A DNA stretch of 59,547 nt from Candidatus Omnitrophota bacterium (GTDB taxonomy: Bacteria > Omnitrophota > Gorgyraeia > 2-02-FULL-51-18): positions 1-59,547 of the forward strand of contig JACPWF010000034.1 in NCBI GenBank assembly GCA_016197155.1, in the 5' to 3' direction. The number at the start of each line of letters is the position of its first letter. The stretch's first letter is position 1. The translations under genes and the position numbers were made by a program. Positions 34,761 to 53,122 of the stretch are shown here, in pieces. The notes under the pieces were generated by a model that did not search any database, was not told the DNA's origin, and worked only from the letters and a program-made list of their open reading frames with translations.

Positions 34761-35105
34761 GTGCCAGAGTTTAAAAAGAGACTCTTTTTCTATCAAACTT
34801 TAAATGGTAAAAGGCCATTTGAGGAGTGGTTTTCCGGCTTCAAAGACAAAAGAACTTATGCGTTACTCGCGGCAAAACTTGACCGTTTGGAACGCTATGG
34901 ACATACGGGTCGGTACAGATCTGTACAAGACGGCATTTATGAGTTAAAAATCGATCATGGGCCTGGGTATCGGGTTTATTTTGCTGAGCAGAGGAGTGCG
35001 GCTATTCTTCTTCTTGTGGGAGGAGATAAAAGCACTCAGCATCGCGATATTGAAAAGGCCGTTGAATATTGGAAGGATTATAAGGAGCGGGTGAATGAAA
35101 CTTAA
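34761..35105 (+). CDS. RelE/ParE-superfamily toxin (HigB-like addiction module killer protein)
   Basis: GKRPFEEWF...AKLDRLERYGHTGRYRSVQDGIYELKIDHGPGYRVYF...LLLVGGDKSTQHRDIEKA matches the addiction-module killer family pattern. Confidence 0.8.
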   Translation: MPEFKKRLFFYQTLNGKRPFEEWFSGFKDKRTYALLAAKLDRLERYGHTGRYRSVQDGIYELKIDHGPGYRVYFAEQRSAAILLLVGGDKSTQHRDIEKAVEYWKDYKERVNET

Positions 35106-35406
35106 AGCCTATCATGAGAGTCTCATCGAAGCCTTGAAAGACCCTAAGCAGGCGGCCGAATATTTAAATGTCGCCCTCGAAGAAGGGGACCCAAAAATGT
35201 TTTTGGTGGCTCTCAGGAATGTTGCAGAAGCTTGCGGCGGGATGTCCAAAGTTTCCCGGCGCACAAAACTCAACCGTGCCAACCTCTACAAAATCTTTTC
35301 CAAATCGGGTAACCCGGAAGTCCAAACACTCTCGCACATTCTTAAGACTTTTGGTTTGAGATTGGCCGTGGAAACGATGTCCTCACAAACTCTTAAGGCC
35401 GCATAA
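35095..35406 (+). CDS. HTH antitoxin (HigA-like addiction module antidote protein)
   Basis: YLNVALEEGDPKMFLVALRNVAEACGGMSKVSRRTKLNRANLYKIFSKSGNPEVQTL. The gene overlaps the toxin by 11 nt. Confidence 0.8.
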   Translation: MKLKAYHESLIEALKDPKQAAEYLNVALEEGDPKMFLVALRNVAEACGGMSKVSRRTKLNRANLYKIFSKSGNPEVQTLSHILKTFGLRLAVETMSSQTLKAA

Positions 35407-35409
35407 GGT

Positions 35410-36978
35410 ATGTTATTAGCCAAAGAAATATTAAAAAACCGTTTTGGTTACGATGATTTTCGTTTGGATCAGGAGAAGATCATTGGGGCGGTTTTGGAAA
35501 AAAAAGACGTGTTGGCGCTCATGCCCACGGGTGGGGGCAAGTCACTGTGTTATCAGATTCCGGCGCTTTTGTTTCCCGGGCTTACCGTGGTCATTTCGCC
35601 GCTCATCGCTTTGATGAAAGATCAGGTGGGGGCGCTGAAGCTGAATGGCATTCCTTCTGCTTTTTTAAATTCTTCTCTTACGGGCCGCGAACAGTCGGAT
35701 ATTCTTTTGGCGGCGGAGGCCGGTGAGCTTAAACTCCTTTACGTGGCTCCCGAGAGACTTTTTTCTCAGGACCCGCCGTTTCTGGAGTTTTTGAAACGGT
35801 TATCGGTGTCCCTTTTTGCGATCGACGAGGCGCGTTGCATCTCTCAGTGGGGTCATGATTTCCGGCCTGAATACATGAAGCTTGCGGCGCTCAAGCGCCA
35901 TTTTCCGGAGGTGCCGGTGATGGCTTTGACGGCGACGGCGGATGAGTTGACGCGGAAAGATATTTTGGAGAAATTGCAGTTAAATGCGCCCGCTGTTTTT
36001 ATTTCGAGCTTTGACAGGAAAAATATTTATTACTTCGTCCGTCCCAAGAAAAATTCCCGCCCGCGGCTTCTCGCTTATCTGAGCGCACGCCGGCAGGAGT
36101 CGGGCATCATTTACGTATTGTCACGGCGCTCGGCGGAACGTTGGTCGGATGAGCTTGAAGCGCGGGGATTTTCGGTAAAGCCGTATCACGCGGGCCTCGA
36201 TAGCCAAACGCGCGCCGAAAACCAGGAGCTTTTCATTCAGGACAAGGTCAAAATCATGGTGGCGACCATCGCGTTCGGCATGGGCATCGACAAGTCCAAC
36301 GTCCGCTACGTGGTTCATCTCGACATGCCAAAAAATATTGAGGGCTATTATCAAGAGACCGGACGGGCCGGCAGGGACGGTTTGAAGAGCGAGGCGGTTT
36401 TATTTTACAGCCCGGGCGACGTGATTAAATTGAAGCATTTCGCGCGCGTGTCCGGCAATCCGAACCAGACTCGAATTTTATTTAAGAAATTAAATCAGAT
36501 GGCGGATTTCTGCGAAATCAAAACCGTCTGCCGCCGCAACCGGCTTCTTAATTATCTGGGCGAAGATTCTCCCGACCGCTGTGACGCTTGCGACGTGTGT
36601 TTGGGTCGTGTGGGGGAGGAGGTGGTGGTTGCCGAAGCGCCCTATGAAGCCGAGCTTTTCAAAATACTGAGAGCGATGCGCATGGACCTCGCCCGGGAGG
36701 CGGGAATGCCGGCCTTTGTGATTTTTTCGGATGCGACGCTGGTTGAGCTTTGCGCCTACCTGCCCCAAACGATGGAAGATCTGCGCCGCATTTCCGGTTT
36801 TGGGGAGGTAAAGCTTGCCCGTTACGGGACTCTCTTCCTTAAAGCTGTCACGGATTACTCCCGCGAGCGTGGTCTCTCCTCGCGCATCGAAAAAAAATAC
36901 ACGGGACAAGCCGCCGGTGACATTCGCGCCGCGGTCAACCGTTTAAAATTCAACAAAACCGCGCAAGCTCGTATATAA
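35410..36978 (+). CDS. recQ: ATP-dependent DNA helicase RecQ (short form with Zn-binding and HRDC domains)
   Basis: MPTGGGKSLCYQIPA, motif II DEARCISQWGHDFRPEY, TATA, ATIAFGMGIDK, QETGRAGRDG, a Cys4 cluster, and a C-terminal HRDC domain. Confidence 0.9.
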   Translation: MLLAKEILKNRFGYDDFRLDQEKIIGAVLEKKDVLALMPTGGGKSLCYQIPALLFPGLTVVISPLIALMKDQVGALKLNGIPSAFLNSSLTGREQSDILLAAEAGELKLLYVAPERLFSQDPPFLEFLKRLSVSLFAIDEARCISQWGHDFRPEYMKLAALKRHFPEVPVMALTATADELTRKDILEKLQLNAPAVFISSFDRKNIYYFVRPKKNSRPRLLAYLSARRQESGIIYVLSRRSAERWSDELEARGFSVKPYHAGLDSQTRAENQELFIQDKVKIMVATIAFGMGIDKSNVRYVVHLDMPKNIEGYYQETGRAGRDGLKSEAVLFYSPGDVIKLKHFARVSGNPNQTRILFKKLNQMADFCEIKTVCRRNRLLNYLGEDSPDRCDACDVCLGRVGEEVVVAEAPYEAELFKILRAMRMDLAREAGMPAFVIFSDATLVELCAYLPQTMEDLRRISGFGEVKLARYGTLFLKAVTDYSRERGLSSRIEKKYTGQAAGDIRAAVNRLKFNKTAQARI

Positions 36979-37045
36979 TTTGTTTGCGTGCATTTGAATG
37001 AAAGTATACTTTACAAATAGACGTACTTAATGTATACTTCATCTC

Positions 37046-38182
37046 ATGGTCAATAGGCCCCAATGGAAAAAGAGGATTCATAACGCATGGAAAGAGGCGT
37101 CCATCGTCTGGCTTTCCGGCGTGCGCCGCTCGGGTAAGACGACGCTCGCGCGGAGTCTCGGAGGTCCGGAGGAGATTCTCTACGTCAACTGCGACCTTCC
37201 CGCGGCCGAGGAGCGGCTTCGAGACCCTGAGTTTTTCTTTCGAAGCTGTGAAAAATCCATTATCGTTTTCGACGAAATCCACCAACTTCGGGATCCGAGC
37301 CGTGTTCTCAAGATCGGCGCCGATCTCTTTCCGCGCCTGAGAATATTGGCCACCGGGTCCTCGACGCTTGCGGCCGGCAGAAAATTCAGGGACACGCTGA
37401 CGGGACGAAAGAGGCTCGTTCATCTTCTGCCGGTTCTCTGGACGGAGCTCGAAGATTTCTCCTGCAAGGATCTGACAAGACGGCTTTTTCAGGGCGGCTT
37501 GCCCCCGGCGCTTCTGACGGCCTCCAAAAAAAACTCTTTTTACCGGGAGTGGCTGGATTCCTTTTTCGCCCGGGACGTGCAAAAGCTTTTTTCGTTCCGC
37601 GACGCGGATAAGTTCAACGCGCTTTTTGAATATCTCCTCAGGCAGAGCTCGGGCCTGTTTGAGACTTCCAGGGCCGCGTCTGATCTCAAGATCAGCCGGT
37701 TGACGATTGAAAATCATCTCCAAGCGCTCGAGACGATGCACGCCATCGCGCGCATTCGGCCTTTTTTCGGAAGCGGACAGAGGGAGATCGTGAAAATGCC
37801 GAAAATCTACGGTTTTGACACGGGTTTCGTCACCTTTGCCCGCGGCTGGGATCCTCTGCGTCCGCAGGATCACGGCGTCTTGTGGGAGCATTTGGTTTTG
37901 GAATATTTACAGGCTTATTTTCCGGACGAGACCATCCGGTATTGGCGCGACAAGGCGGGAAGGGAAGTGGATTTTATTTTGGCCCGGCGCAGGGATCATG
38001 TGGATGCGATCGAATGCAAATGGAACCCGCTGGATTTCGATAGTTCGGCGCTTAGGGAATTTCGTTCTCATTACCCGAAAGGCGTAAATTACCTGGTGAC
38101 TCCTTCGGCAAGACCCGCTTACGTAAAACGTTATGGAAGTCTAACCGTTAAAATTTGCGAGCCTTCCAGCTTGGCCGCCTAA
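37046..38182 (+). CDS. AAA+ ATPase with C-terminal PD-(D/E)xK-like domain (COG1373/DUF4143 type)
   Basis: Walker A GVRRSGKTT, Walker B IIVFDEIH, and a C-terminal EVDFIL...AIECKW. TATACT lies 7 nt before the ATG and there is no Shine-Dalgarno. Confidence 0.8.
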   Translation: MVNRPQWKKRIHNAWKEASIVWLSGVRRSGKTTLARSLGGPEEILYVNCDLPAAEERLRDPEFFFRSCEKSIIVFDEIHQLRDPSRVLKIGADLFPRLRILATGSSTLAAGRKFRDTLTGRKRLVHLLPVLWTELEDFSCKDLTRRLFQGGLPPALLTASKKNSFYREWLDSFFARDVQKLFSFRDADKFNALFEYLLRQSSGLFETSRAASDLKISRLTIENHLQALETMHAIARIRPFFGSGQREIVKMPKIYGFDTGFVTFARGWDPLRPQDHGVLWEHLVLEYLQAYFPDETIRYWRDKAGREVDFILARRRDHVDAIECKWNPLDFDSSALREFRSHYPKGVNYLVTPSARPAYVKRYGSLTVKICEPSSLAA

Positions 38183-38311
38183 AGACCTCTCGCAGTCCGG
38201 CCTCACTCTCTTGTTGAAATTATCTATTAACATGGTCTTCGGTAGCGCCGCTTAAAATTCAGCAAACCCGCATAAATTCGTATATAATTTAGTCTCAATG
38301 GGAAAAACTCA

Positions 38312-40747
38312 ATGATGCTTTATCTCGTAAGCCTGTCTTTCGCCAGCTTGTTTTCTTTGGTTCTCGGAGCCTTCGTTTTCTATAAGAATCCGGCGAGCCG
38401 TGTGAATCGAACGTGGGGGCTTTCCTGTTTGGGTTGTTGCGTTTGGAGTTTGTTTTTTGTATTGATGATCCGCGCCCACACTTACAAAAGCGCGCTTTTA
38501 TTTTCCAAAATCTGTAATTTGTCAGCGGCATATATGATCGTTCTCGTCGCCCATTTTTGCAAAGAAGTCGCGAGCTTCAATACAAAAAAAATGGGGTTGA
38601 TCAAATTGGGATATTTGAACGGCGTTTTATTGACACTCTCGGCATTTACAGACTATTTTTGTTCCGCAAGGCCAATTTTAAATTTTGACTATTTTGTATC
38701 CGCCAGACCCGTCTACCATCTTTTCACGGCTCACTTCTTCTTTTATATTTTTTATTCCGAGTACGTCCTGATTAGAGGGATGGCCTATCTGTCCGAGGAG
38801 CGAAAGAATCAGATCAAATACATCATTGTCGCTCTGACCAGCGGTTATGTTGGCGGCGGTTTGACGTTTCTCCCTGCCTATGGAATCCCGTTTCAGCCTG
38901 TTTCCGTGCATTTTGTGTGGGTATACGCCGCAATCATCTCGTACGCTATTTTGAAGTATCAATTAATGGACATTAAGGTAGTAATCAAAAAGACCCTTTT
39001 TTATTCTTTGCTGGTTTTTTTGGTTTCCGCACTCTATTTTATGGCGGTTTTTATGACTCACAAACTATTGATAAGTCCCTGGGATCTGCAAACTTGTTTG
39101 ATGAATGGTTTAAAGGGAGTGGAAATTTTATCTCAAATGATTACAAAAAATTTGTTTACTCTTACCAGTTTTCTATGCGGTGTGGCGTCTATGGGTCTGG
39201 CCGTCTTTGGACTGATTGTTGGCAGAACGAAGGCCCAAAGACTGTTTATGGTTTTTAACGCGGCGGTTGCCATATGGGGTTTTGGAAATTTCGTTGCAGG
39301 TTCTTCCGAGACTTCTGCTGGGGCTGTTATTGGATGGAGATCCGCTTATATAGGAGGGTTCTTTTTAAGTGCCATTTTTTGTCATTTGACGCAGGTATTT
39401 TTTGAGATCAGAAATAGAAAAATTCTCTTCATTGCGTATCTGCAGGCGATTGTGTTTTCCTCAGCCATGGTCTTTCACCCGCAAAGTCTTGTTTCTCAAA
39501 CCAGGCTGGCTTTTGGCGTGCACTATAACGTGATTACCGGAATGATGGCTACGGCGATAGCGATGTTTTTATTGATAGTAATTATCACCTATAAAAATCT
39601 TTTAGAGTATTTGCAAGTAGCTACAGAAGGTCGCCAGACGCAAGCGAAATATTTTATTTTTGGTTTTGCGTTCGGGTTTATCGGAGGAGCAACAACTTTA
39701 TTACCTCCGTTTGGTATTGATGTCATTTACCCGGCGGGAAATCTGGGTGTTGGTATTTATGCATTTATTTTAGTGTACGCAATGTTTCGGCATCAGATTT
39801 TGGATGTGAGGATTGTAATAAAAAGGACCATTTTTTATTCGCTCACGACGCTGTTTATTTCCATAGCTTATATTTTGGTCATATTTGTACTGCATAAGTT
39901 ATTCCTATTGGAAAATATCATTAAACCCACGGTACCAAACAGCATTATTTTAGTTGTGTTGATAATGGTATTTTTGAAACCGGTAGAAATATTTTTGCAT
40001 AGATTTTTGGATAAGAAATTTTTTAAAGGCACCATTACGGAAATTGCTAAGCAAAAACAGCTTTTGGAAACAGAGCTCGAACGCCGCGAGCGCCTGAAAA
40101 GCGTCGGCATCCTCGCCGCCGGCATGGCGCACGAGATCAAAAATCCCATCACGGCGATCAAGACCTTCGCGGAGTATCTGCCGGCGAAGTACGACGACCC
40201 CGGCTTTCGGGAAAAGTTTTCCAAGATCATCGTCGAGGAATCCGAGCGCGTCTCAAGGATCGTGCAGGACCTTCTTTTATTTTCAAAGCCGTCCGAACCC
40301 CGCCGCTGTCTCTGCGACGTGCACCGGCTTTTGCGCGACACGCTCGACCTTTTGAGCGGGGATATTCTGAAAAATAAAATAACGGTCGTGACCGATTTTG
40401 ATCCCGCCGCCGGGAAAAGCCATGTCGACGCGGGCCAGATGAAGCAGGCGTTTCTCAATCTTCTCATGAACGCGATAGAGGCCATGCCAAACGGCGGCGC
40501 CCTTAAGGTTTCTACTTCTCTGACCGCTGATTTGGGTCTGCTGATCACCGTCTCCGACACGGGCCCCGGCATTTCCTCCGACAAACTCCCGCATCTTTTC
40601 GACCCTTTCTTTACGGACAAGGACGAGGGGACGGGTCTGGGCCTGGCCATCACGCATGCCATCATCGAGAAAAACGGGGGAAAGATCACCGTTCAAAGCG
40701 CATTCGGAAAAGGCGCGTCCTTTCTCATCACGCTTCCTCCGGCCTGA
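38312..40747 (+). CDS. sensor histidine kinase with two tandem 7TM-type membrane modules
   Basis: 811 aa with about 14 TM helices. The junction motif occurs twice (YAILKYQLMDIKVVIKKTLFYS and YAMFRHQILDVRIVIKRTIFYS). H-box AAGMAHEIKNPIT, and HATPase N, G1 and G2 boxes. Confidence 0.85.
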   Translation: MMLYLVSLSFASLFSLVLGAFVFYKNPASRVNRTWGLSCLGCCVWSLFFVLMIRAHTYKSALLFSKICNLSAAYMIVLVAHFCKEVASFNTKKMGLIKLGYLNGVLLTLSAFTDYFCSARPILNFDYFVSARPVYHLFTAHFFFYIFYSEYVLIRGMAYLSEERKNQIKYIIVALTSGYVGGGLTFLPAYGIPFQPVSVHFVWVYAAIISYAILKYQLMDIKVVIKKTLFYSLLVFLVSALYFMAVFMTHKLLISPWDLQTCLMNGLKGVEILSQMITKNLFTLTSFLCGVASMGLAVFGLIVGRTKAQRLFMVFNAAVAIWGFGNFVAGSSETSAGAVIGWRSAYIGGFFLSAIFCHLTQVFFEIRNRKILFIAYLQAIVFSSAMVFHPQSLVSQTRLAFGVHYNVITGMMATAIAMFLLIVIITYKNLLEYLQVATEGRQTQAKYFIFGFAFGFIGGATTLLPPFGIDVIYPAGNLGVGIYAFILVYAMFRHQILDVRIVIKRTIFYSLTTLFISIAYILVIFVLHKLFLLENIIKPTVPNSIILVVLIMVFLKPVEIFLHRFLDKKFFKGTITEIAKQKQLLETELERRERLKSVGILAAGMAHEIKNPITAIKTFAEYLPAKYDDPGFREKFSKIIVEESERVSRIVQDLLLFSKPSEPRRCLCDVHRLLRDTLDLLSGDILKNKITVVTDFDPAAGKSHVDAGQMKQAFLNLLMNAIEAMPNGGALKVSTSLTADLGLLITVSDTGPGISSDKLPHLFDPFFTDKDEGTGLGLAITHAIIEKNGGKITVQSAFGKGASFLITLPPA

Positions 40748-40933
40748 CCTATTTTTGATCCATAGATTTTTCCTATCAGAATTAAGCCCGATTCAGCGAA
40801 GTTTTTCCCGCCGCTTTCAAAAACTTTTAATATTCGCTTAAAGAAGCTAAAAATTATTTCCTTCCGCTCTTGAAAACGGAGAAATCCTGTGCCAAACTTT
40901 TTGGGCAATGGAAAACAGAACCGGGAGAAGCGG

Positions 40934-41176
40934 ATGAAAGTATTTGTGTGCCAAAGGCGCGGGCTCGGAAAACACCTGATCCTGACGTTTGACAAAACCA
41001 TCACGGCCGCCGAGGTGAGAAAAATTTTGGACGGGGAAGACACGGACGCGGCGATCCGGCGGCTCATCGCCCGATCGACCGGCCTGGCCCACGTGCCGGC
41101 CCGGCACGAGAAAAAAATGCGCGCGGCGTCCAAATTCACCGTGAGCGAGAAATATGTGGCGGAAAAACTCGGTTAA
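40934..41176 (+). CDS. 80-aa hypothetical protein (paralog of 34464-34706)
   Basis: GGGAGA Shine-Dalgarno. The protein is MKVFVCQRRGLGKHLILTFDKTITAAEVRKIL...AASKFTVSEKYVAEKLG. Confidence 0.55.
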   Translation: MKVFVCQRRGLGKHLILTFDKTITAAEVRKILDGEDTDAAIRRLIARSTGLAHVPARHEKKMRAASKFTVSEKYVAEKLG

Positions 41177-41230
41177 AAGGGCGGAGCGGGAGGCGTGGGT
41201 GGTCGCCAGAGATCGGGAAGTCTGCCGGAC

Positions 41231-42385
41231 CTAGGGGATGGCCGATCCGATACGGTTCAGCGGCACGACGGACACCCGCTTGTCCAGCGCGTACTCAGTC
41301 TCCCCGGGGTATACCACCCATAAATGGGCCAACTCCAATTCGTCGATCGCGGCCTTCATCGACTGGGTCAAAGTCGGAGCGTCGCCGTATTTCGCTTCGA
41401 CGCCCCACAGCTTGCCGTTTCGCTGGAACACCAGATCCAATTCCCCTCCGGTATGCACGCCCCAGTAGAAAACTTCTTCCTGTCGGAGAGACAAGTGCTG
41501 GATGGCCTGTTCAATTGAGAATCCCTCCCATGAGGCCCCGAGCTTGGGATGAACAAGGAGATCCGCGCGGTTTTGCGCCGAGATCAGCGCATGGAAAAGC
41601 CCGGAATCCCTGAAGTATATTTTGGGCCGTCTGAGGAGTCTTTTTTTTGTGTTGTAAAACCAGGGCTGAAGCTGGCGGATTAAAAAGGTCCCGCAAAGAA
41701 TATCCAGGTAATGCCGCGCGGCCGTCTCCGAGGCGCCGAGACTGCGCGCGATCTCCGAGGCGTTGAAAATTTGGCCGTGGTAGTGGGCCAGCATGATCCA
41801 GAACCGGCGCAGGGTGCCGGCCGGAACGCGGATCCCCAGAGCCGGGACGTCCCTTTCAAGGAAGGTCGTGATGAAATCCTGGCGCCACGCGAACGAGGCC
41901 TGGTCGTTCTTTGACAGGAACGACCGAGGAAACCCGCCGCGGATCCAAAGTTTTTGATCAGATGGTTTGGGGAGGCTGTCCAATGAGAGGCCGCCCAGTT
42001 CGAGATAGGCGATGCGCCCTGCGAGCGACTCCGAACTTTGAGCCAGGAGACTTCCCGACGCGCTGCCGAGGATGAGATACTTGGCTTCCCTGTTTTTGTC
42101 GACAAGCACGCGCAAGATCGGAAAAAGCTCCGGTCTGCGTTGGATCTCATCGATGACGATGAGGCCTTTTAAGGATTCCAAGGCCAACAGGGGATTTTCG
42201 AACTGCGCCAAATCCCGTGGATTTTCAAGGTCAAAACGGTGGATGGGACGGAACCGGCTTTTCCTCGCCCACTGACGGGCCAGCGTGGTCTTCCCGCATT
42301 GCCTGGGCCCGACAATGGCGACAACCGGCGCTTCGCGAAATCGCCGCGCCAAAAACTGAAGTTCCTTTGTCCGCTCGATTTCCAT
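41231..42385 (-). CDS. AAA+ ATPase with C-terminal PD-(D/E)xK-like domain (COG1373/DUF4143 type)
   Basis: Walker A GPRQCGKTT, Walker B LIVIDEIQ, C-terminal ELDLVF...GVEAKY. On the minus strand, TATGCT lies 6 nt before the ATG. Confidence 0.8.
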   Translation of the reverse strand: MEIERTKELQFLARRFREAPVVAIVGPRQCGKTTLARQWARKSRFRPIHRFDLENPRDLAQFENPLLALESLKGLIVIDEIQRRPELFPILRVLVDKNREAKYLILGSASGSLLAQSSESLAGRIAYLELGGLSLDSLPKPSDQKLWIRGGFPRSFLSKNDQASFAWRQDFITTFLERDVPALGIRVPAGTLRRFWIMLAHYHGQIFNASEIARSLGASETAARHYLDILCGTFLIRQLQPWFYNTKKRLLRRPKIYFRDSGLFHALISAQNRADLLVHPKLGASWEGFSIEQAIQHLSLRQEEVFYWGVHTGGELDLVFQRNGKLWGVEAKYGDAPTLTQSMKAAIDELELAHLWVVYPGETEYALDKRVSVVPLNRIGSAIP

Positions 42386-42496: not shown

Positions 42497-42535
42497 TTTA
42501 TGTAAAATGAATTTTTAATTTGCATTTTACATAAA
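42497..42535. promoter_or_regulatory. perfect 13-bp inverted repeat in the divergent ATPase promoter region
   Basis: TTTATGTAAAATG-13 nt-CATTTTACATAAA, located between the divergent genes 41231-42385 and 42554-43729. Confidence 0.6.
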
Positions 42536-42553
42536 TTGGTGTATACTCCTCCC

Positions 42554-43729
42554 ATGACAAGAAAGTACCTGAAACGCACACTTGAGCTTGAAATAAAAAA
42601 AGCGGCGCGGCAGTTTCCGGTCGTGGTCCTGACGGGGCCGCGCCAAACGGGCAAATCCACGCTCCTCAAGAAGCTGTTTCCGCGGCATCATTATGCGGAG
42701 CTGGATGATCCGCTGACCCGGCAGGCCATAAAAAGGGATCCGCAGCTTTTTCTTGAAAATCACGCACCCCCTTTGGTTCTTGACGAAATTCAGGAGTCGC
42801 CGAAGATACTGCCCTATATCAAAATGTGGGTTGACGCCAACCGGTCCAAAAACGGCCAGTTTATCCTGACCGGGTCGCAGGTATTTCCGGTGATGGCGGG
42901 CATTACCGAGTCGCTGGCCGGCCGGGCGGCGCTGTTTGAGCTTTTGGGATTTTCCTGGGAAGAACTTGGGAAGAAGTCCGATTCTTTCAAGGCCTGCTTT
43001 CATCAGATTTTTAAAGGCTTCTATCCCGATCCGGCCGTGCACGGCGTACAACCCGGCAATTACTACAGCGCTTATCTTAAAACTTATCTTGAGAGGGACA
43101 TCCGGCAAATCAAGTCCGTTCACGACCTCACGGTTTTTCATAATTTTCTTGAACTCGTAGCTTCCCGCGTGGGTTCGCTTTTGAATTTGAACGAGATCTC
43201 GAAAGAAAGCGGCATCAGCCACACCACGGCCCGGCAATGGCTGTCGCTTCTGGAAAGCACGCGCATCATTTATCTTTTACGGCCCTATTTCAGAAATATT
43301 TCCAAACGGGTGGTCAAAAGTCCCAAGATTTATTTCACGGACACAGGCCTTCTTTCGTATCTTCTTAAATTTGGCGGTCCGGAGGCTGTGGCGGCGGGTC
43401 CCATGGGCGGCGCTTTTTTTGAAAACATGGTGGTTGTCGAGCTTCTTAAGGAAAAATTTCATAGAAATAAAAGGGGGGAGCTTTATTTTTACAGGGACTC
43501 CAATCATAACGAAGTGGATGTTCTCATCGACGAGGGCATGAATAAAACGCTCATCGAAATTAAAATGGCTAAAACACTGCGTCCGGAGCATGCGGATTTT
43601 TTAAGCCGGTTCCAGAAGAAAATCCCTCATTCTTCCGCGTATCTGGTCAGCCTCTGCGGAGACCGCACCCGTCTTTTTAAAAATGTCTGGGCCATCCCCT
43701 GGTCCGATGCTCATGAGCTGTTGCATTGA
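42554..43729 (+). CDS. AAA+ ATPase with C-terminal PD-(D/E)xK-like domain (COG1373/DUF4143 type)
   Basis: Walker A GPRQTGKST, Walker B LVLDEIQ, C-terminal EVDVLI...LIEIKM. The start is taken at ATG 42554, 6 nt after TATACT (the ORF track gives TTG 42536). Confidence 0.8.
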   Translation: MTRKYLKRTLELEIKKAARQFPVVVLTGPRQTGKSTLLKKLFPRHHYAELDDPLTRQAIKRDPQLFLENHAPPLVLDEIQESPKILPYIKMWVDANRSKNGQFILTGSQVFPVMAGITESLAGRAALFELLGFSWEELGKKSDSFKACFHQIFKGFYPDPAVHGVQPGNYYSAYLKTYLERDIRQIKSVHDLTVFHNFLELVASRVGSLLNLNEISKESGISHTTARQWLSLLESTRIIYLLRPYFRNISKRVVKSPKIYFTDTGLLSYLLKFGGPEAVAAGPMGGAFFENMVVVELLKEKFHRNKRGELYFYRDSNHNEVDVLIDEGMNKTLIEIKMAKTLRPEHADFLSRFQKKIPHSSAYLVSLCGDRTRLFKNVWAIPWSDAHELLH

Positions 43730-44005
43730 TGGTTAAAAAAGCGCGGAGAGAAGCGTGGGTCGTCGCGAAGAGGCCCGGGGGCTCGAGGGGCCTACAAGAT
43801 ATGGTGGGCCAAGCGGCGCTCATTGCCATATACATGATTTGTTAGAACTGTTAAGTTTTCATCAAAAAACATTGACAGAGAATAAAGAATTAAGCTAGAC
43901 TCCTTCCTACGGGCAGACCCAAAAAAGAAGCCATTCAATAAGACCAAACGGAACATAAAGCGGGATAAAAGAACATAAGATTTTTTGTCCTAATCGGCGG
44001 TAAAA

Positions 44006-44257
44006 ATGAAGGTGATGGAAATGCAAATGAAAGAGGTTCATTCGAAGAACGGCGACAAGGTTTACACCGTGCCGGAGCTGGCGCGGTACCTGCGCATGCA
44101 GCCGCTCACGATTTACAAGCACGCCTCGAGCGGCAAACTGCCGGGTTTTAAGATCGGCTCCCACTGGCGTTTCAAGAAAAAAACCATCGACCGGTGGATT
44201 CACGAGCAGGAGCGGTCGCGCACTAAGACAAACGGAAATATTTTAACAAACCCATGA
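44006..44257 (+). CDS. excisionase-family helix-turn-helix DNA-binding protein
   Basis: YTVPELARYLRMQPLTIYKHASSGKLPGFKIGSHWRFKKKTIDRWI is the MerR/excisionase-type HTH pattern. The start is ambiguous among four in-frame ATGs. Confidence 0.7.
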   Translation: MKVMEMQMKEVHSKNGDKVYTVPELARYLRMQPLTIYKHASSGKLPGFKIGSHWRFKKKTIDRWIHEQERSRTKTNGNILTNP

Positions 44258-50361: not shown

Positions 50362-51534
50362 ATGATCCGAGTCAAGGACCCGGTCGTTCTTCTTAAAATC
50401 ATCACCCGCTTTATCGACCGGCAGATGGGCGTGACGCACGTCGCGGTGATTCTCTACGACAAAAAGCGCGGTGCCTACACGCTCATCGACAGCAAAGGCG
50501 AGGGCGGCGCCAAGATTCCCATCGGCTACGTGAAAGTCCCCGCGGACAATCCGATCGTCAATTTTTTTAAATCCTCCCACAACGGGGCCTTCGCGCGCCG
50601 CGAGGCGCTGGTCTACAAAGAGATCGACCCCATCCAAAATTTTGAGATCCTCGTGAACAAAAAAGAGGGCCGCGCGATCCATTACGAGGACATTAAAAAA
50701 CAGATGAATTATCTGCGCGCGGCGGTGTGCGTGCCGAGTTTTTACAAAAAGGAACTGATCGGCATTCTCATTTTGGGCGAAAAGCTTTCGGGCGACGTTT
50801 ACCACGAGGAGGAGATCAGCCTCTTCGTGACGCTGGCCAACGACGTGGCGATGGCCGTGAAAAACGCCGAGTTGATCCACGATTTGAGAACGGCGTACGA
50901 GAAAGAGCACAGCCTTTTTATCAATACGTCCATTGCCCTCGCGACCGCGATCGACGCGCGCGACCGCTACACGCACGGCCACTCCGAGCGCGTCTCGCAC
51001 TACAGCCTTGTCATCGTGAAGGAGCTCATTGACTCGGGAAAAATGCAGTTTGACCGCGAATTCATGGAAACGGTCCAGCTCTCGGGGCTTTTGCATGATG
51101 TGGGAAAGATCGGGATTCGGGATGAGATTTTAAATAAGCCCGCCAAACTCACCGGCGAAGAATTTGAAATCATGAAAACCCACGTGAAGATCGGCGCCAG
51201 CATCGTCAAACCCGTGAAGGGCCTGAAGCACCTGGAGGACGGCATCCTGTATCATCACGAACGCTTTGACGGGGGAGGCTATCCGTTTGGGCTGAAGGGG
51301 AAGGACATTCCCATTATCGGGAGGATCGTGAGCGTGGCCGACACTTACGACACCATCGTGACGGCGCGTTCCTATAAAGAGGCCGAGGCCGCGGAGGCCG
51401 CTTTTGAAGAAATGAAACGCTCGTCCGGCGCTCAGCTCGACCCCGAAATCGTCGAGGCCTTTCACCGCGCGTACAAAAAAGGAAAAATCACGCGCCGCGA
51501 GTACCTCAGCTTCGATTTTTCAAAAATACACTAA
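50362..51534 (+). CDS. GAF-like domain + HD-GYP c-di-GMP phosphodiesterase
   Basis: HGHSERVSHYS...LLHDVGKIGI...HHERFDGGGYPFGL...VADTYDT. The reading frame stays open upstream to 50251, so the N-terminus is uncertain. Confidence 0.85.
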   Translation: MIRVKDPVVLLKIITRFIDRQMGVTHVAVILYDKKRGAYTLIDSKGEGGAKIPIGYVKVPADNPIVNFFKSSHNGAFARREALVYKEIDPIQNFEILVNKKEGRAIHYEDIKKQMNYLRAAVCVPSFYKKELIGILILGEKLSGDVYHEEEISLFVTLANDVAMAVKNAELIHDLRTAYEKEHSLFINTSIALATAIDARDRYTHGHSERVSHYSLVIVKELIDSGKMQFDREFMETVQLSGLLHDVGKIGIRDEILNKPAKLTGEEFEIMKTHVKIGASIVKPVKGLKHLEDGILYHHERFDGGGYPFGLKGKDIPIIGRIVSVADTYDTIVTARSYKEAEAAEAAFEEMKRSSGAQLDPEIVEAFHRAYKKGKITRREYLSFDFSKIH

Positions 51535-53122
51535 ACGCCGTCCCTTTTCCCGATCTGCTTTCCACCTCGATCTTCCCGCCGTGTTCCTTAATGATGCCGT
51601 GCACAATCGAAAGTCCCAGGCCCGTTCCGGATTCCTTCGTCGTGAAAAAGGGGTCAAAGATGTGGGGGAGCTGGTCTTCCGCGATCCCACAGCCGGTGTC
51701 GGAGACAGTGGTCAGTAGACAGGAGTCAGCAGTCAGGGACGTGGAAATCGTGAGCGTGCCGCCGCCCGGCATGGCCTGGATGCCGTTCAGGAAAAGATTC
51801 AGAAACGCCTGTTTCAACTGATTTTTATCCAGCGCCAATTCCGCATCCGCGCCGTAATTTTTGACGACGTTGATCCGATGCTCCAGCAGATTTTTATTCA
51901 GAAGGGCCAGCGTGTCATCGATGATCGGGCAAAGATGCTGACGCCGGAGCTCGAGCTCCTTGGGTTTTGAAAAATCAAGAAGCTGTTGGACGATATTGTT
52001 CACCCGGTCCACCTCATCAACCACAATTCTCTTAAACTTTTCTCTAAACTCCGGATCACCGTGTTTATAGGGCAAATATTCCGCGAAGGTTTTGATGGAC
52101 GTGAGAGGATTTTTGATCTCATGGGCCATCCCCGCGGCGAGGGTCGCCACGGATTTCATCCGGTCCTGTTTCTGGGCCTCGATTTTAAAGAGCTCGTTTT
52201 CGCGCAGGATTTTTTCAGGATCCATTTTGAAAAAATATTTGTCGAGCGTGTTTTGAATCCTCAGGCGCAAAGGATTGAAAACCAGCGCGATGAAGAGAGA
52301 GGCCATGAGCGCCACGACGATTGACCGGTAGCCGAGATAGGATTGGAAAAGGCGTTCGCTGATTAAAATAATGAAGAGATAAATAGCCGTCATGATGAAA
52401 ATAAGCGAGGAATAAATAAAGCCTCTTCGGACGATGATGTCGATGTCCAGCAACCTATGGCGCACGATGGCATAGGTGATCAGCGAAGAAAAGGCGCCTA
52501 CGAAGACGTAGCCAAACGGATAAATAGGCACATTAAACTTTGGAAGGTAATCCATGGCGGCGATGACAAAAATGCCGATGGACAGGGCGTAGTATTTGAA
52601 ACGCTGATAGTTTTCGTCCTGTAGTCTGCTTTTGGCGATAGCCGAGGCTTTAACCAAAACGTGGATAATGCGGCTGGCCAAGGCAAAAGTAAACAGCACG
52701 TAAGCCAGCATCAGCGGGCCGCCCCGAGGGTAGTAGCCCCAGTAAAACCGCTCTATTTTTGGCATGTAAAGGGGCGACGTGTATAGGCTTATCAGACTGA
52801 AAATACAAAAAAGAACGCTGAAGCAAGCCATGCGGACGTCGAATTTTTCTTTCAAATCGCCCAAGGCTTCGAGCGTGAAAAAATAGATGGTTGGCGATAA
52901 AAGAACAGCCATGGCGTGACCAAGTCTGAGAAAATTTAAAATTTGATTGAAATCACTTAGCGAATAAGCAAGCCCATAGGAGAAAAGCCATCCAAAGCTC
53001 CAAAGTGTAACCAGAAAACAAAGCTGATTTTTTTTCTTCGTCGGGTTGGACAGGAGGACAAATATTCCCAAAGCGATGTTGTAAATCGAAACAATAAAAT
53101 TGGGAATAGAGTAGGGGTTCAT
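51506..53122 (-). CDS. 7TM sensor histidine kinase
   Basis: 538 aa. The 7TM N-terminus ends in YAIVRHRLLDIDIIVRR. H-box AAGMAHEIKNPLT, plus a HATPase domain. ATGA overlap with the upstream kinase. Confidence 0.85.
   Translation of the reverse strand: MNPYSIPNFIVSIYNIALGIFVLLSNPTKKKNQLCFLVTLWSFGWLFSYGLAYSLSDFNQILNFLRLGHAMAVLLSPTIYFFTLEALGDLKEKFDVRMACFSVLFCIFSLISLYTSPLYMPKIERFYWGYYPRGGPLMLAYVLFTFALASRIIHVLVKASAIAKSRLQDENYQRFKYYALSIGIFVIAAMDYLPKFNVPIYPFGYVFVGAFSSLITYAIVRHRLLDIDIIVRRGFIYSSLIFIMTAIYLFIILISERLFQSYLGYRSIVVALMASLFIALVFNPLRLRIQNTLDKYFFKMDPEKILRENELFKIEAQKQDRMKSVATLAAGMAHEIKNPLTSIKTFAEYLPYKHGDPEFREKFKRIVVDEVDRVNNIVQQLLDFSKPKELELRRQHLCPIIDDTLALLNKNLLEHRINVVKNYGADAELALDKNQLKQAFLNLFLNGIQAMPGGGTLTISTSLTADSCLLTTVSDTGCGIAEDQLPHIFDPFFTTKESGTGLGLSIVHGIIKEHGGKIEVESRSGKGTAFSVFLKNRS

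What the first reader, a model, noticed from the sequence alone, without database searches (positions are those of the whole stretch)
36939..38290. AAA+/nuclease gene sits in a cassette flanked by 43-nt direct repeats that duplicate the recQ 3' end
Seen in sequence: 36939-36981 (CCGTTTAAAATTCAACAAAACCGCGCAAGCTCGTATATAATTT, which includes the last 12 recQ codons and the stop) recurs at 38248-38290 (CCGCTTAAAATTCAGCAAACCCGCATAAATTCGTATATAATTT). I count 36 of 43 identical positions with no gaps. The about 1.27-kb segment between the copies contains only the DUF4143-type ATPase gene 37046-38182 and its own promoter. The second copy supplies the TATAAT in front of kinase 38312. Inference: this is the footprint of a site-specific or homology-mediated insertion (attL/attR-like) of a single-gene cassette between recQ and the kinase.
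Basis: partly seen in the sequence, partly recalled or inferred. Interest (0 to 1): 0.65.

Follow-up and report, generated by a model that had tools for sequence, protein, structure and literature searches.

The report
Single-gene defence cassette with flanking duplication
A 1.3-kb unit made of one promoter and one ATPase-nuclease gene (a very common but untested candidate anti-phage gene) has been inserted between recQ and a sensor kinase and is bracketed by two copies of the recQ end; related cassettes in other microbes often carry the same kind of host-derived flanking repeats, which suggests the gene moves as a small mobile module without any recognisable recombinase.

Summary
36939-36981 and 38248-38290 are ungapped 43-nt direct repeats (36/43) with sharp edges. 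They are the only two copies in the window and score above all 1000 shuffles. Between them lie only a conserved promoter and one AAA_14/DUF4143 (PADLOC PDC-S01) gene.

This is not an isolated case. Among homologous cassettes in metagenomes, 11 of 59 distinct genes have locus-specific, host-derived flanking direct repeats (41-134 nt). The rate is 2 of 357 for control genes (Fisher p about 1e-8). A 115-nt repeat at 98% identity flanks a 77%-identical relative. In the window itself, a weaker 36-nt repeat brackets the ATPase2+ATPase3 pair.

Near-identical cassettes in unrelated contexts lose homology near -47 (or about -85) and near the stop codon. The mobile unit is therefore promoter plus ORF, about 1.2 kb. 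It has no terminal inverted repeats, no fixed duplication length, no recombinase and no tRNA.

Differences between repeat copies are biased to third codon positions. This favours insertion-duplication by recombination of DNA carrying a host segment over a transposase-type target duplication, but the mechanism is not settled. No empty site could be found, because the organism has no close relative in the databases.

The cassette-insertion reading is well supported. The attL/attR site-specific reading is not.

The parts
35410..36978 (+). recQ helicase gene (522 aa; DEAD, Helicase_C, RecQ_Zn_bind, HRDC). Its last 12 codons and stop lie inside repeat copy 1.
   Evidence: Pfam hits. The tail is not alignable to the closest RecQ homologs, which carry an extra C-terminal domain of about 100 aa.
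36939..36981 (+). Repeat copy 1 (upstream copy). It is part of the intact recQ 3' end plus 3 nt, and contains a promoter-like TCAACA-18-TATAAT.
36982..36998 (+). Left spacer of 17 nt between the repeat and the family-conserved cassette. It is not conserved in any relative.
   Evidence: DNA homology to the closest cassettes starts at 36999-37001. The alignment of 68 upstream regions supports this.
36999..37045 (+). Cassette promoter, conserved across the family: -35 TTTACA at 37010-37015, 17-nt spacer, -10 TATACT at 37033-37038, then 7 nt to the ATG with no Shine-Dalgarno sequence. A leaderless mRNA is inferred.
   Evidence: the same motif appears in L183-L190
37046..38182 (+). ATPase 1: an AAA_14 (STAND/ORC-like P-loop) domain, a winged helix and a DUF4143 PD-(D/E)XK nuclease domain; PADLOC candidate PDC-S01. 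Walker A G30-K31-T33, Walker B D76-E77 and nuclease residues D309, E323 and K325 are invariant.
   Evidence: Pfam, PADLOC, alignments, AF2 model with pLDDT 79.5, fold matches
38183..38247 (+). Right spacer of 65 nt between the ATPase stop and repeat copy 2. It is not conserved in relatives and has no similarity to recQ.
38248..38290 (+). Repeat copy 2 (downstream copy). It is an orphan relic of the recQ end with a premature stop in the recQ frame, and carries a TATAAT (38283-38288) 23 nt upstream of the kinase ATG.
38312..40747 (+). 7TM-receptor histidine kinase (HisKA_7TM, HisKA, HATPase_c); the first gene of a signalling cluster that is syntenic with relatives.
41171..41206 (+). Second instance, copy A of a 36-nt imperfect direct repeat (28/36). 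It covers the stop codon of the small ORF 40889-41176.
   Evidence: score 16; none of 1000 shuffles reach it; 10 of 357 control genes do
41231..42385 (-). ATPase 2, a paralogous AAA_14/DUF4143 gene (23% identical to ATPase 1).
42554..43729 (+). ATPase 3, a paralogous AAA_14/DUF4143 gene (25% identical to ATPase 1), with its own TATACT at a similar short distance from the ATG.
43731..43766 (+). Second instance, copy B of the 36-nt repeat. It starts 1 nt after the ATPase 3 stop codon.
   Evidence: Relatives L082 and L084 go from the kinase directly to the HTH_17 gene, so this block is an insertion.

Best explanation
The 43-nt repeats mark where a small mobile unit entered the chromosome between recQ and the kinase gene. 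The unit is a promoter plus one gene for a STAND-like ATPase with a winged helix and a PD-(D/E)XK nuclease domain (PDC-S01 type). It arrived together with a few dozen bases of foreign flank on each side.

The insertion duplicated the last 43 nt or more of the recQ region. Copy 1 keeps recQ intact. Copy 2 is an orphan relic that now lies in front of the kinase.

The most likely mechanism is insertion-duplication by recombination, not transposition. In this model a DNA fragment or circle from a related genome carries the cassette next to a stretch of host-homologous DNA. It recombines through that stretch, either by a Campbell-type single crossover or by one homologous end plus one illegitimate join. 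The result is one donor-type and one resident copy of the stretch, and the non-functional copy then erodes.

Shown: the repeat; the recurrence of such repeats across the family; the discrete cassette boundaries; and the absence of transposon or integrase hallmarks.

Inferred: the direction of events, the recombination mechanism, the leaderless expression and the defence function.

My sub-probabilities are about 0.8 that this is the footprint of a cassette insertion with duplication, and about 0.4-0.45 that the mechanism is the homology-based one.
For: 1. The repeat is real and non-random.

2. It recurs across the family. In 80 metagenome loci with 62-79% identical ATPases, 11 of 59 distinct genes with adequate flanks have flanking direct repeats scoring 25 or more, against 2 of 357 control genes (Fisher p 1.2e-8). 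The repeats are 41-134 nt long, 77-97% identical and different at every locus.

3. The repeats are host DNA. They include gene 3' ends with stop codons (L121, L137), a gene 5' end with RBS and ATG (L096), and an internal fragment of gap (L132); the host gene stays intact on one side.

4. L172, from the same clade (77% identity), has a 115-nt repeat at 113/115.

5. A second, weaker instance brackets ATPase2+3 in this window. Relatives L082 and L084 lack that block.

6. The cassette is a discrete module. Pairs 93-97% identical in unrelated flanks lose homology at -47 to -53 (or -84 to -87) and within about 50 nt of the stop. Family-wide conservation spans only -47 to the stop.

7. ATPase 1 has more than 6400 relatives with E<=1e-60, the best 120 of them 68-81% identical. 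The flanking genes have none above 65% and 57%. Many ATPase relatives lie on 1.2-1.5 kb contigs.

8. The cassette occurs as a lone insertion among housekeeping genes: inside a sulfate-assimilation cluster, after NAD synthase, and near mutS.

9. For the homology-based mechanism: differences between copies are biased to third codon positions. L132 has 8 synonymous and 2 non-synonymous differing codons, with positions [1,1,8]. L137 has positions [4,4,14]. Pooled, P=4.5e-5 against a uniform spread and 0.006 against a decay model.

10. The variable spacers, variable repeat length and lack of conserved termini also favour recombination.
Against: No empty site was recovered for this or any other locus, so the direction of events (insertion versus some other rearrangement) is inferred.

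About 80% of homologous cassettes show no detectable flanking repeat, including tight insertions such as L186 and L190.

The window's own repeat is short (43 nt, longest perfect runs 13 and 10 nt). That is too short for RecA-type recombination unless it is an eroded remnant. Its differences show no synonymous bias: 2 synonymous versus 4 non-synonymous.

The third-position bias could also arise if the functional copy was later replaced by a diverged allele through ordinary homologous recombination.

L132 does not fit a simple Campbell product, because the orphan copy lacks the adjacent gap 3' part.

Some flanking similarities may be tandem paralogs: L183 (pilin-like genes) and L127 (repeated small-gene modules).

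All comparative data come from metagenome contigs.
Confidence: 0.6

Rival explanations
1. This is a long, variable target-site duplication made at the moment of insertion. Two nicks 17-134 nt apart in the target are filled in around a captured DNA fragment. The breaks might be made by the cassette's own ATP-driven PD-(D/E)XK nuclease, or the fragment might be captured by end joining. The copies start identical and then diverge.
For: The most recent-looking event (L172) has an essentially perfect 108-nt repeat. Host genes stay intact, as in any target duplication. The protein carries an intact nuclease motif and an ATPase with some McrB-like fold similarity. The window's repeat is too short for classical homologous recombination.
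Against: The repeats do not abut fixed cassette ends: spacers are 16-174 nt on the left and 2-538 nt on the right. No terminal repeats or conserved end motifs were found. The length is not fixed. The third-position bias of differences is not expected from neutral decay of one copy. In L132 the duplicated piece lies 281 nt away from the insert on one side, with gap intact in between. The fold is closest to STAND/ORC-type sensors, and no transposase or integrase appears among the listed fold matches.
Confidence: 0.2
2. This is the remnant of site-specific integration by a tyrosine or serine recombinase acting in trans, or since lost. In that case the repeats are attL and attR of a small cis-mobilisable element that targets the 3' end of recQ.
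For: Integration into gene 3' ends with a replacement end carried by the element gives exactly this geometry. Several other loci also involve gene 3' ends. An HTH_17 (excisionase-like fold) gene lies at about 44007-44256, near the second pair.
Against: No integrase lies in the cassette or among the scanned ORFs of the 59.5-kb window. The repeats have a different sequence at every locus and include a 5' gene end, an internal gene fragment and intergenic DNA. In 13 or more independent cases the only shared content is the ATPase gene. There is no tRNA association. The HTH_17 gene is also present in relatives that lack the ATPases.
Confidence: 0.08
3. No insertion occurred. The two 43-mers are similar because both are promoters or regulatory sites kept alike by selection, or because of chance or a local segmental duplication unrelated to the ATPase gene.
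For: Copy 1 scores as a sigma-70-like promoter, and both copies keep TCGTATATAATTT perfectly. Some flanking similarities in other loci may be tandem paralogs (L183, L127).
Against: Copy 1 is coding sequence of recQ. The similarity extends over 43 nt with sharp edges, and none of 1000 shuffles reach the score. The family-wide enrichment of locus-specific flanking repeats (p about 1e-8 against controls that include paralog effects) is not explained. The motif does not recur elsewhere in the window.
Confidence: 0.05
4. This is an assembly artefact. The contig joins two strain variants in which the cassette sits at slightly different positions, so no single genome carries both copies.
For: The copies look like allelic variants (84-98% identity, often synonymous differences). 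All the data are short-read metagenome assemblies. Logan unitigs break exactly at the shared k-mers of the repeats.
Against: For the window, an independent assembly gives the same structure at uniform depth of about 9.6x, and no near-identical variant contigs exist in that run. Junction k-mers must exist in reads. It would require two independent neighbouring insertions in co-occurring strains at 13 or more loci from different studies and assemblers. In X4 the cassette depth equals the host depth.
Confidence: 0.04

Closest known systems
PADLOC candidate defence system PDC-S01 (AAA_14 + DUF4143, COG1373)
   Same: ATPases 1-3 all match the PDC-S01 HMMs (E 1e-52 to 1e-99) and both Pfam domains above threshold. 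The single-gene architecture, ATPase fused to a PD-(D/E)XK nuclease, is as described (PMC12988326; PMC3424549).
   Different: Published work treats it as an abundant, experimentally untested defence candidate. I found no description of its promoter-plus-ORF modularity or of host-derived flanking repeats.
Campbell-type insertion-duplication and homology-facilitated illegitimate recombination (my own knowledge of transformation genetics in pneumococcus and Acinetobacter)
   Same: Heterologous DNA ends up flanked by two copies of a host segment. The copies can differ by donor-recipient divergence. No dedicated recombinase or defined ends are needed, and host genes stay intact.
   Different: Those are laboratory or sporadic events. 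Here the outcome recurs for one gene family, with very small inserts (1.3-1.9 kb) and short remaining repeats. No circular or donor form was observed.
Integrative islands and cis-mobilisable elements at gene 3' ends (attL/attR)
   Same: The 3' end of a host gene is duplicated on both sides of the insert, and the gene is kept intact by one copy.
   Different: There is no integrase and no conserved att core. Targets are of every kind, repeat length is variable, and there are spacers between repeat and cargo.
Integron gene cassettes
   Same: A compact single-ORF mobile unit. Some loci look like arrays of small cassettes at a hotspot (L127, L149).
   Different: The repeats are host coding or intergenic DNA. 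They are not attC hairpins with conserved core sites. The cassette carries its own promoter, and no integron integrase was found.
Phage morons (autonomous promoter-gene units inserted between genes)
   Same: A self-contained transcription unit dropped between unrelated genes.
   Different: The context is chromosomal, not phage. There are no close relatives in IMG/VR and only distant ones in phage and plasmid records. Flanking duplications are not a described moron feature (my knowledge).
Insertion sequences and transposons with target-site duplications
   Same: Direct repeats of target DNA flank an inserted segment.
   Different: There is no transposase fold, no terminal inverted repeats, and no fixed duplication length. 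The repeats do not abut constant ends.

Membership tests
PDC-S01 / AAA_14-DUF4143 (COG1373) proteins | N-terminal AAA_14 P-loop domain and C-terminal DUF4143 domain above the curated thresholds | tested here: met
   PF13173 scores 77.6 bits (cut-off 27) and PF13635 scores 111.6 bits (cut-off 28.1) for 37046-38182. ATPases 2 and 3 also pass.
PDC-S01 / AAA_14-DUF4143 (COG1373) proteins | Match to the PADLOC PDC-S01 profile HMMs | tested here: met
   PDLC04789 at E 8.6e-52 over residues 1-352; the paralogs reach down to 3.7e-99.
PDC-S01 / AAA_14-DUF4143 (COG1373) proteins | Intact Walker A/B motifs and PD-(D/E)XK catalytic residues | tested here: met
   G30, K31, T33, D76, E77, D309, E323 and K325 are invariant in 36 sequences, including the two distant paralogs.
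PDC-S01 / AAA_14-DUF4143 (COG1373) proteins | Anti-phage activity | not testable with these tools
   The literature states that validation is pending (PMC12988326).
IS element / DNA transposon | Encodes a transposase (DDE, HUH, serine or tyrosine type) | tested here: not met
   The only gene is a STAND/ORC-like ATPase with a winged helix and a nuclease. The best fold matches are Apaf-1, PAB2304 and McrB.
IS element / DNA transposon | Terminal inverted repeats or conserved ends | tested here: not met
   No inverted repeat joins the cassette ends. Nothing is conserved beyond -47 or beyond the stop in 67-68 loci.
IS element / DNA transposon | Target-site duplication of fixed length abutting the ends | tested here: not met
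   Repeats are 17-134 nt long and separated from the cassette by variable spacers.
Integrative element with attL/attR (tyrosine or serine recombinase) | Recombinase gene within or next to the element | tested here: not met
   None lies between the repeats, and none is among the Pfam-scanned ORFs of the window.
Integrative element with attL/attR (tyrosine or serine recombinase) | The same att core at independent integrations | tested here: not met
   The repeat sequence is unrelated between loci, and there is no shared junction motif.
Integron cassette | attC recombination site (imperfect palindrome with conserved core sites) at the cassette boundary | tested here: not met
   The repeats are recQ coding sequence here, and gap, gene ends or intergenic DNA elsewhere. 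By my reading, the one GTT-initial heptamer in the window's repeat (GTTTAAA) does not fit the GTTRRRY core, and the repeat is shorter than typical attC sites. No covariance-model search for attC was run.
Campbell-type insertion-duplication | Heterologous DNA flanked by direct copies of a host segment, with the host gene intact on one side | tested here: met
   This holds for the window, L121, L137, L096, L147 and L172.
Campbell-type insertion-duplication | The two copies derive from donor and recipient, with ortholog-like divergence | tested here: inconclusive
   There is a third-position bias in L132 and L137 (pooled P 0.006 against the decay model) but none in the window. Later allele replacement is an alternative cause.
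Campbell-type insertion-duplication | A circular or donor intermediate carrying one copy | tested here: inconclusive
   In contig L178, the ATPase 3' end is followed by a repeat copy with the upstream-type right end. That is compatible with a circle or a tandem form, but the contig ends there.
Diversity-generating retroelement (TR/VR) | Reverse transcriptase, and adenine-specific mismatches between the repeats | tested here: not met
   There is no RT. The mismatches are T>C, A>G, A>C, G>A, C>T, G>A and C>T.

The most novel reading that the evidence does not exclude
The AAA_14/DUF4143 (PDC-S01) gene is a self-mobilising single-gene element. In this reading, its own ATP-driven PD-(D/E)XK nuclease makes the breaks that let the promoter-plus-ORF unit insert next to gene ends, with long, variable duplications. 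Its status as the fourth most common 'defence system' would then partly reflect selfish spread and not immunity.
Probability: 0.12. Interest if true: 0.9.

Novelty: new variant of a known kind. Interest (0 to 1): 0.62.

Why it matters
PDC-S01 is reported as one of the most abundant candidate defence genes in bacteria and archaea, yet nothing is known about how it works or how it spreads. If it travels as a 1.2-kb promoter-plus-ORF module that inserts beside host gene ends and leaves host-derived direct repeats, three things follow.

First, there is a concrete signature for recognising recent acquisitions. Second, there is a way to date them and to find donors. Third, the question of whether the gene is a defence gene, a selfish element or both becomes testable.

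It would also add a recombinase-free route by which single defence genes colonise core chromosome regions outside classical islands. For this window, it explains why an accessory gene sits between recQ and a conserved signalling cluster, and why a recQ-end relic precedes the kinase.

Tried and rejected
**Empty-site searches, all without result**
- The RecQ scan of 185,579 species genomes gave a best match of 65% identity and no synteny.
- Kinase orthologs are at most 57% identical and are preceded by a paralogous kinase, not recQ.
- Contigs of three runs from the source study show no form that skips the cassette.
- For L121 and L096, Logan unitigs are too fragmented, or break at the repeat k-mers, so they cannot phase occupied and empty forms.
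- For L172, the upstream host gene has only one other relative (71% identical), and that locus (L182) is not syntenic.

**Other tests**
- Inferring the ancestral RecQ tail from homologs failed, because the last 26 or so residues are lineage-specific.
- tRNA association: none.
- Rfam families in the window: none.
- Viral contigs: no relatives of ATPase 1 or ATPase 3.
- Plasmid and phage records hold only relatives below 30% identity.
- PDB sequence search: no homolog.

**Readings rejected:** DGR, integron, IS and tyrosine-integrase; the reasons are in the membership table.

**Other checks**
- Automated choice of host reading frames in GC-rich contigs was unreliable, so I replaced it with manual frames.
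- No shared junction motif or microhomology was seen across events.
- No further recQ-like similarity was found in the spacer next to copy 2, in DNA or in the three translated frames.


Full report
**1. The observation**

They match at 36 of 43 positions without gaps and start 1309 nt apart.

Similarity ends abruptly on both sides. A gapped local alignment of 500 nt against 300 nt around the copies returns only these 43 nt.

Copy 1 holds the last 12 codons of recQ (RLKFNKTAQARI), its TAA stop and three more bases. In the same register, copy 2 reads RLKFSKPA*, so it is an orphan with a premature stop.

The repeat is not a common motif. A 20-nt degenerate core occurs only at these two places in 59.5 kb, against 0.02 expected.

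The local alignment score between the 600-nt flanks of the enclosed gene is 25.5. A thousand dinucleotide-preserving shuffles gave a mean of 10.05, an sd of 1.1 and a maximum of 16.

The same arrangement is present in an independently built Logan contig from the same run (L001). That run shows uniform depth of about 9.6x and no near-identical variant contigs.

**2. What lies between and around the repeats**

The 1266 nt between the copies contain one gene, 37046-38182, with Pfam AAA_14 and DUF4143. All three such genes in the window match PADLOC's candidate defence family PDC-S01.

An AlphaFold model (pLDDT 79.5, pTM 0.80) resembles STAND/Apaf-1-type and archaeal PAB2304 Walker ATPases, followed by a MarR/ArsR-like winged helix. 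Pfam assigns the C-terminal part to DUF4143, a PD-(D/E)XK nuclease family (PMC3424549). Walker A/B and nuclease residues (D309, E323, K325) are invariant. No transposase or integrase appears among the listed fold matches.

Upstream lies a sigma-70-like promoter: TTTACA, 17 nt, TATACT (37010-37038). Only 7 nt separate the -10 element from the ATG, and there is no Shine-Dalgarno sequence. A leaderless mRNA is therefore inferred.

The wider window is core chromosome: secY, adk, map, rpsD, rpoA, RNR, gap-pgk-tpi, an opp-type transporter, thiG, leuB, asd and truA. Then come a HigB/HigA-like pair, recQ, ATPase 1 and a two-component signalling cluster.

No integrase or transposase was found among the scanned ORFs, and there is no tRNA and no Rfam family.

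The sample is a groundwater metagenome. Several of the named best ATPase hits are labelled Candidatus Omnitrophica, which suggests, but does not prove, the phylum.

**3. The pattern is a property of the gene family**

ATPase 1 has more than 6400 relatives with E<=1e-60, and the best 120 listed are 68-81% identical. The best RecQ and kinase relatives are only 65% and 57% identical. Many of the ATPase relatives lie on 1.2-1.5 kb contigs, which is how multicopy or variably placed units usually assemble.

I fetched 80 metagenome loci with 62-79% identical homologs. For each, I aligned the 600 nt upstream of the gene against the 600 nt downstream.

Twenty of 81 loci, about 14 independent events plus the window, have a significant direct repeat. 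After removing duplicate gene sequences and loci with short flanks, 11 of 59 reach a score of 25 or more. Among 357 control ORFs of 300-500 aa in the same collection of contigs, only 2 do (Fisher p = 1.2e-8).

Across all 20 loci the repeats are 17-134 nt long and 77-100% identical; the 11 that score 25 or more are 41-134 nt long and 77-97% identical. Each locus has a different repeat sequence. They are host DNA:
- the 3' end of a 599-aa ORF with its stop (L121, 126 nt);
- another gene's 3' end (L137 and its diverged relative L131, 129 nt);
- the RBS, ATG and first 16 codons of an 857-aa gene (L096, 64 nt, 62/64);
- the 3' end of a convergent gene (L147);
- an internal 134-nt piece of gap (L132).

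In each case, one copy is continuous with an intact host gene and the other is an orphan.

A further relative from the window's own clade (L172, 77% identical protein) is bracketed by a 115-nt intergenic repeat at 113/115. This is effectively a perfect 108-mer.

Of three more loci from NCBI MAGs, one (L183) has flanking similarity, though there it may reflect two pilin-like paralogs. The other two show tight insertions without detectable repeats, one inside a sulfate-assimilation cluster and one after NAD synthase. Flanking duplication is therefore frequent, at roughly one in five, but not universal.

**4. A second instance in the same window**

The divergent pair ATPase 2 (41231-42385, minus strand) and ATPase 3 (42554-43729) is bracketed by a 36-nt imperfect repeat (28/36). 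Copy A (41171-41206) spans the stop codon of the small ORF 40889-41176. Copy B (43731-43766) begins one base after the ATPase 3 stop.

None of 1000 shuffles reaches its score of 16, but 10 of 357 control genes do, so this instance is suggestive only.

In the two relatives that share the signalling cluster (L082, L084), the kinase is followed within 150-255 nt by the HTH_17 gene. In the window, 3.27 kb (the small ORF, ATPase 2 and ATPase 3) intervene. This is the nearest thing to an empty-site comparison that the data allow, and it shows that these ATPases are accessory insertions.

**5. The mobile unit**

An alignment of 68 upstream regions shows conservation only from about -47 to the ATG. 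The consensus is GCTAyCaTACTTTACAttTGGT, a spacer, TATAGT, then 7-8 nt to the ATG. Nothing is conserved beyond the stop codon.

The more telling evidence comes from cassettes that are 93-97% identical yet sit in different flanks. They lose homology abruptly:

| Pair | Identity | Homology from | Homology to |
|---|---|---|---|
| L129/L149 | 96.8% | -47 | +28 |
| L134/L139 | 96.3% | -53 | -13 |
| L113/L114 | 92.9% | -49 | +8 |
| L110/L116 | 92.8% | -47 | -9 |
| L122/L147 | 95.1% | -84 | -33 |
| L126/L135 | 94.3% | -87 | +49 |

At such identities, neutral flanks would still align if they were shared. The unit that moves is therefore essentially promoter plus ORF, about 1.2 kb.

In the window, this unit is 36999-38182. 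The repeats lie 17 nt to its left and 65 nt to its right. In other loci the spacers range from 16 to 174 nt on the left and from 2 to 538 nt on the right.

There are no terminal inverted repeats and no shared junction motif.

**6. Mechanism**

A classical transposon or IS is excluded. There is no transposase, no defined ends, no fixed duplication length, and the repeats do not abut constant ends.

A site-specific integrase is unlikely. The repeats share no core, targets are of every kind, and no recombinase is present.

Integron attC sites and DGR repeats also fail their defining tests (see the membership table).

Two models remain.

*Model (a): insertion-duplication by recombination.* A fragment or circle from a related genome carries the cassette next to host-homologous DNA. 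It integrates by a single crossover, or by one homologous end plus one illegitimate join. This leaves a donor-type copy and a resident copy.

*Model (b): a long, variable target duplication.* It is created at staggered breaks and followed by divergence.

The codon test favours (a). In L132 the orphan copy differs from the functional gap copy at 10 codons, 8 of them synonymous, with positions [1,1,8]. L137 gives positions [4,4,14]. Pooled, the third-position excess has P = 4.5e-5 against a uniform spread. It has P = 0.006 against a model in which one copy decays neutrally.

In L147, the orphan copy is closer (50/51) to the allele of the related genome L122 than to its own genome's functional copy (43/46). 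The numbers are too small for significance.

Several points count against (a) or leave it open:
- Later replacement of the functional copy by ordinary allelic recombination would give the same bias.
- The window's own 43 nt show no bias and are too short for RecA unless eroded.
- L132 is not a simple Campbell product.
- L172's repeat is essentially perfect.

I therefore put about 0.8 on cassette insertion with duplication of the target region, about 0.4-0.45 on (a), and about 0.2 on (b).

**7. Function**

Inferred from the architecture, the protein is a STAND-like nucleotide-dependent sensor with a DNA-binding winged helix and a nuclease effector, as in many abortive-infection or defence proteins.

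The literature lists PDC-S01 as the fourth most common defence candidate across prokaryotes, with no experimental validation (PMC12988326, PMC13356809). DUF4143 is listed as a PD-(D/E)XK family of unknown function (PMC3424549). COG1373 appears among genes co-shared by horizontal transfer (PMC10782964).

I found no paper that describes flanking repeats or the promoter-plus-ORF modularity.

**8. Limits**

- No empty site was found for any event.
- All comparative loci are short-read metagenome contigs.
- Some flanking similarities may be paralogs (L127, L183).
- The mechanism is inferred.
- Whether copy 2 serves as the kinase promoter is untested. Copy 2 fails the promoter-scan threshold that copy 1 passes.

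**9. Verdict**

The cassette-insertion interpretation is supported and generalises to the family. The site-specific attL/attR version is not supported.

The thing itself is a new variant of known kinds: insertion-duplication on the one hand, mobile defence cassettes on the other. It is of moderate to high interest, because it concerns one of the most abundant uncharacterised candidate defence genes.

Noticed in passing
window 41171-41206 and 43731-43766: A 36-nt imperfect direct repeat (28/36) brackets the divergent ATPase2/ATPase3 pair. Copy A spans the stop of the small ORF 40889-41176, and copy B starts right after the ATPase3 stop. Relatives L082 and L084 lack the whole 3.27-kb block.
   Followed up: partly
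window 36999-37045; also 42500-42553: The ATPase cassettes carry a conserved promoter with only 7-8 nt between the -10 element and the ATG and no Shine-Dalgarno sequence, which implies leaderless mRNAs. GTATAC palindromes (AAGTATACTT) occur upstream of ATPase 1, and TGTATACT occurs upstream of ATPase 3.
   Followed up: partly
window 34761-35406: A HigB/Gp49-like toxin and a HigA-like (dnstrm_HI1420) antitoxin pair lie directly upstream of recQ, ending 4 nt before its start. Together with the three PDC-S01 genes this makes a small accessory and defence-like patch next to core genes.
   Followed up: no
window 36898-36978: The RecQ here ends about 26 residues after the HRDC region, with a tail that aligns to no homolog. 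Its closest relatives (63-65% identical) continue with a C-terminal helix-turn-helix-like extension of about 100 aa. The recQ 3' end may therefore have been remodelled.
   Followed up: partly
window 38250-40050: The 5' two thirds of the kinase gene have 31-45% GC, against about 55% in its 3' third and in the neighbouring genes. There is also an internal 66-nt repeat (38941-39006 and 39775-39840, 71%).
   Followed up: no
window 51506-54735: Two tandem, same-length (538 aa) 7TM histidine kinase paralogs lie on the minus strand, with 260-300-nt stretches at 77-87% identity.
   Followed up: no
window 56834-59078: A long run of repeats with a 126-nt period (42-aa units). The ORF 55844-57187 has no Pfam match.
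   Followed up: no
L149 2058-2614 (compared with L129 4294-4676): Next to the ATPase cassette, a segment of about 430 nt that is not an ATPase gene is itself flanked by a 31-65-nt direct repeat of the host flank. L129, whose flank is 98.6% identical, lacks it. Small DR-flanked inserts may therefore accumulate at the same hotspots.
   Followed up: no
L172 3721-3867 and 5135-5254; L178: The 115-nt repeat contains a 9-bp inverted repeat and a GTTGCGC-GTAA-GCGCAAC hairpin. A third, partial copy (30 nt) follows the upstream copy. In contig L178, from another sample, the ATPase 3' end joins a repeat copy with the upstream-type right end. That fits a circle or tandem form, but the contig ends there.
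   Followed up: partly
L127 633-6453: A repeat of about 150-210 nt occurs four times in 6 kb around the ATPase gene, probably as paralogous small-gene modules. The flanking similarity in that locus is therefore part of a larger array.
   Followed up: partly
L185-L187, L190, L183: Cassettes of the same clade sit alone between housekeeping genes: between ATP-sulfurylase and a sulfate ABC transporter, after NAD synthase, and between mutS and pilin/secretin genes. These are not classical defence islands.
   Followed up: partly
L165-L171: In an uncultured Lamprocystis lineage, the identical ATPase protein (P0149) is found in more than 15 contigs, always between a TIR-STAND-TPR protein and an IS630-like transposase plus a TIR protein. 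That is a defence-island context.
   Followed up: no
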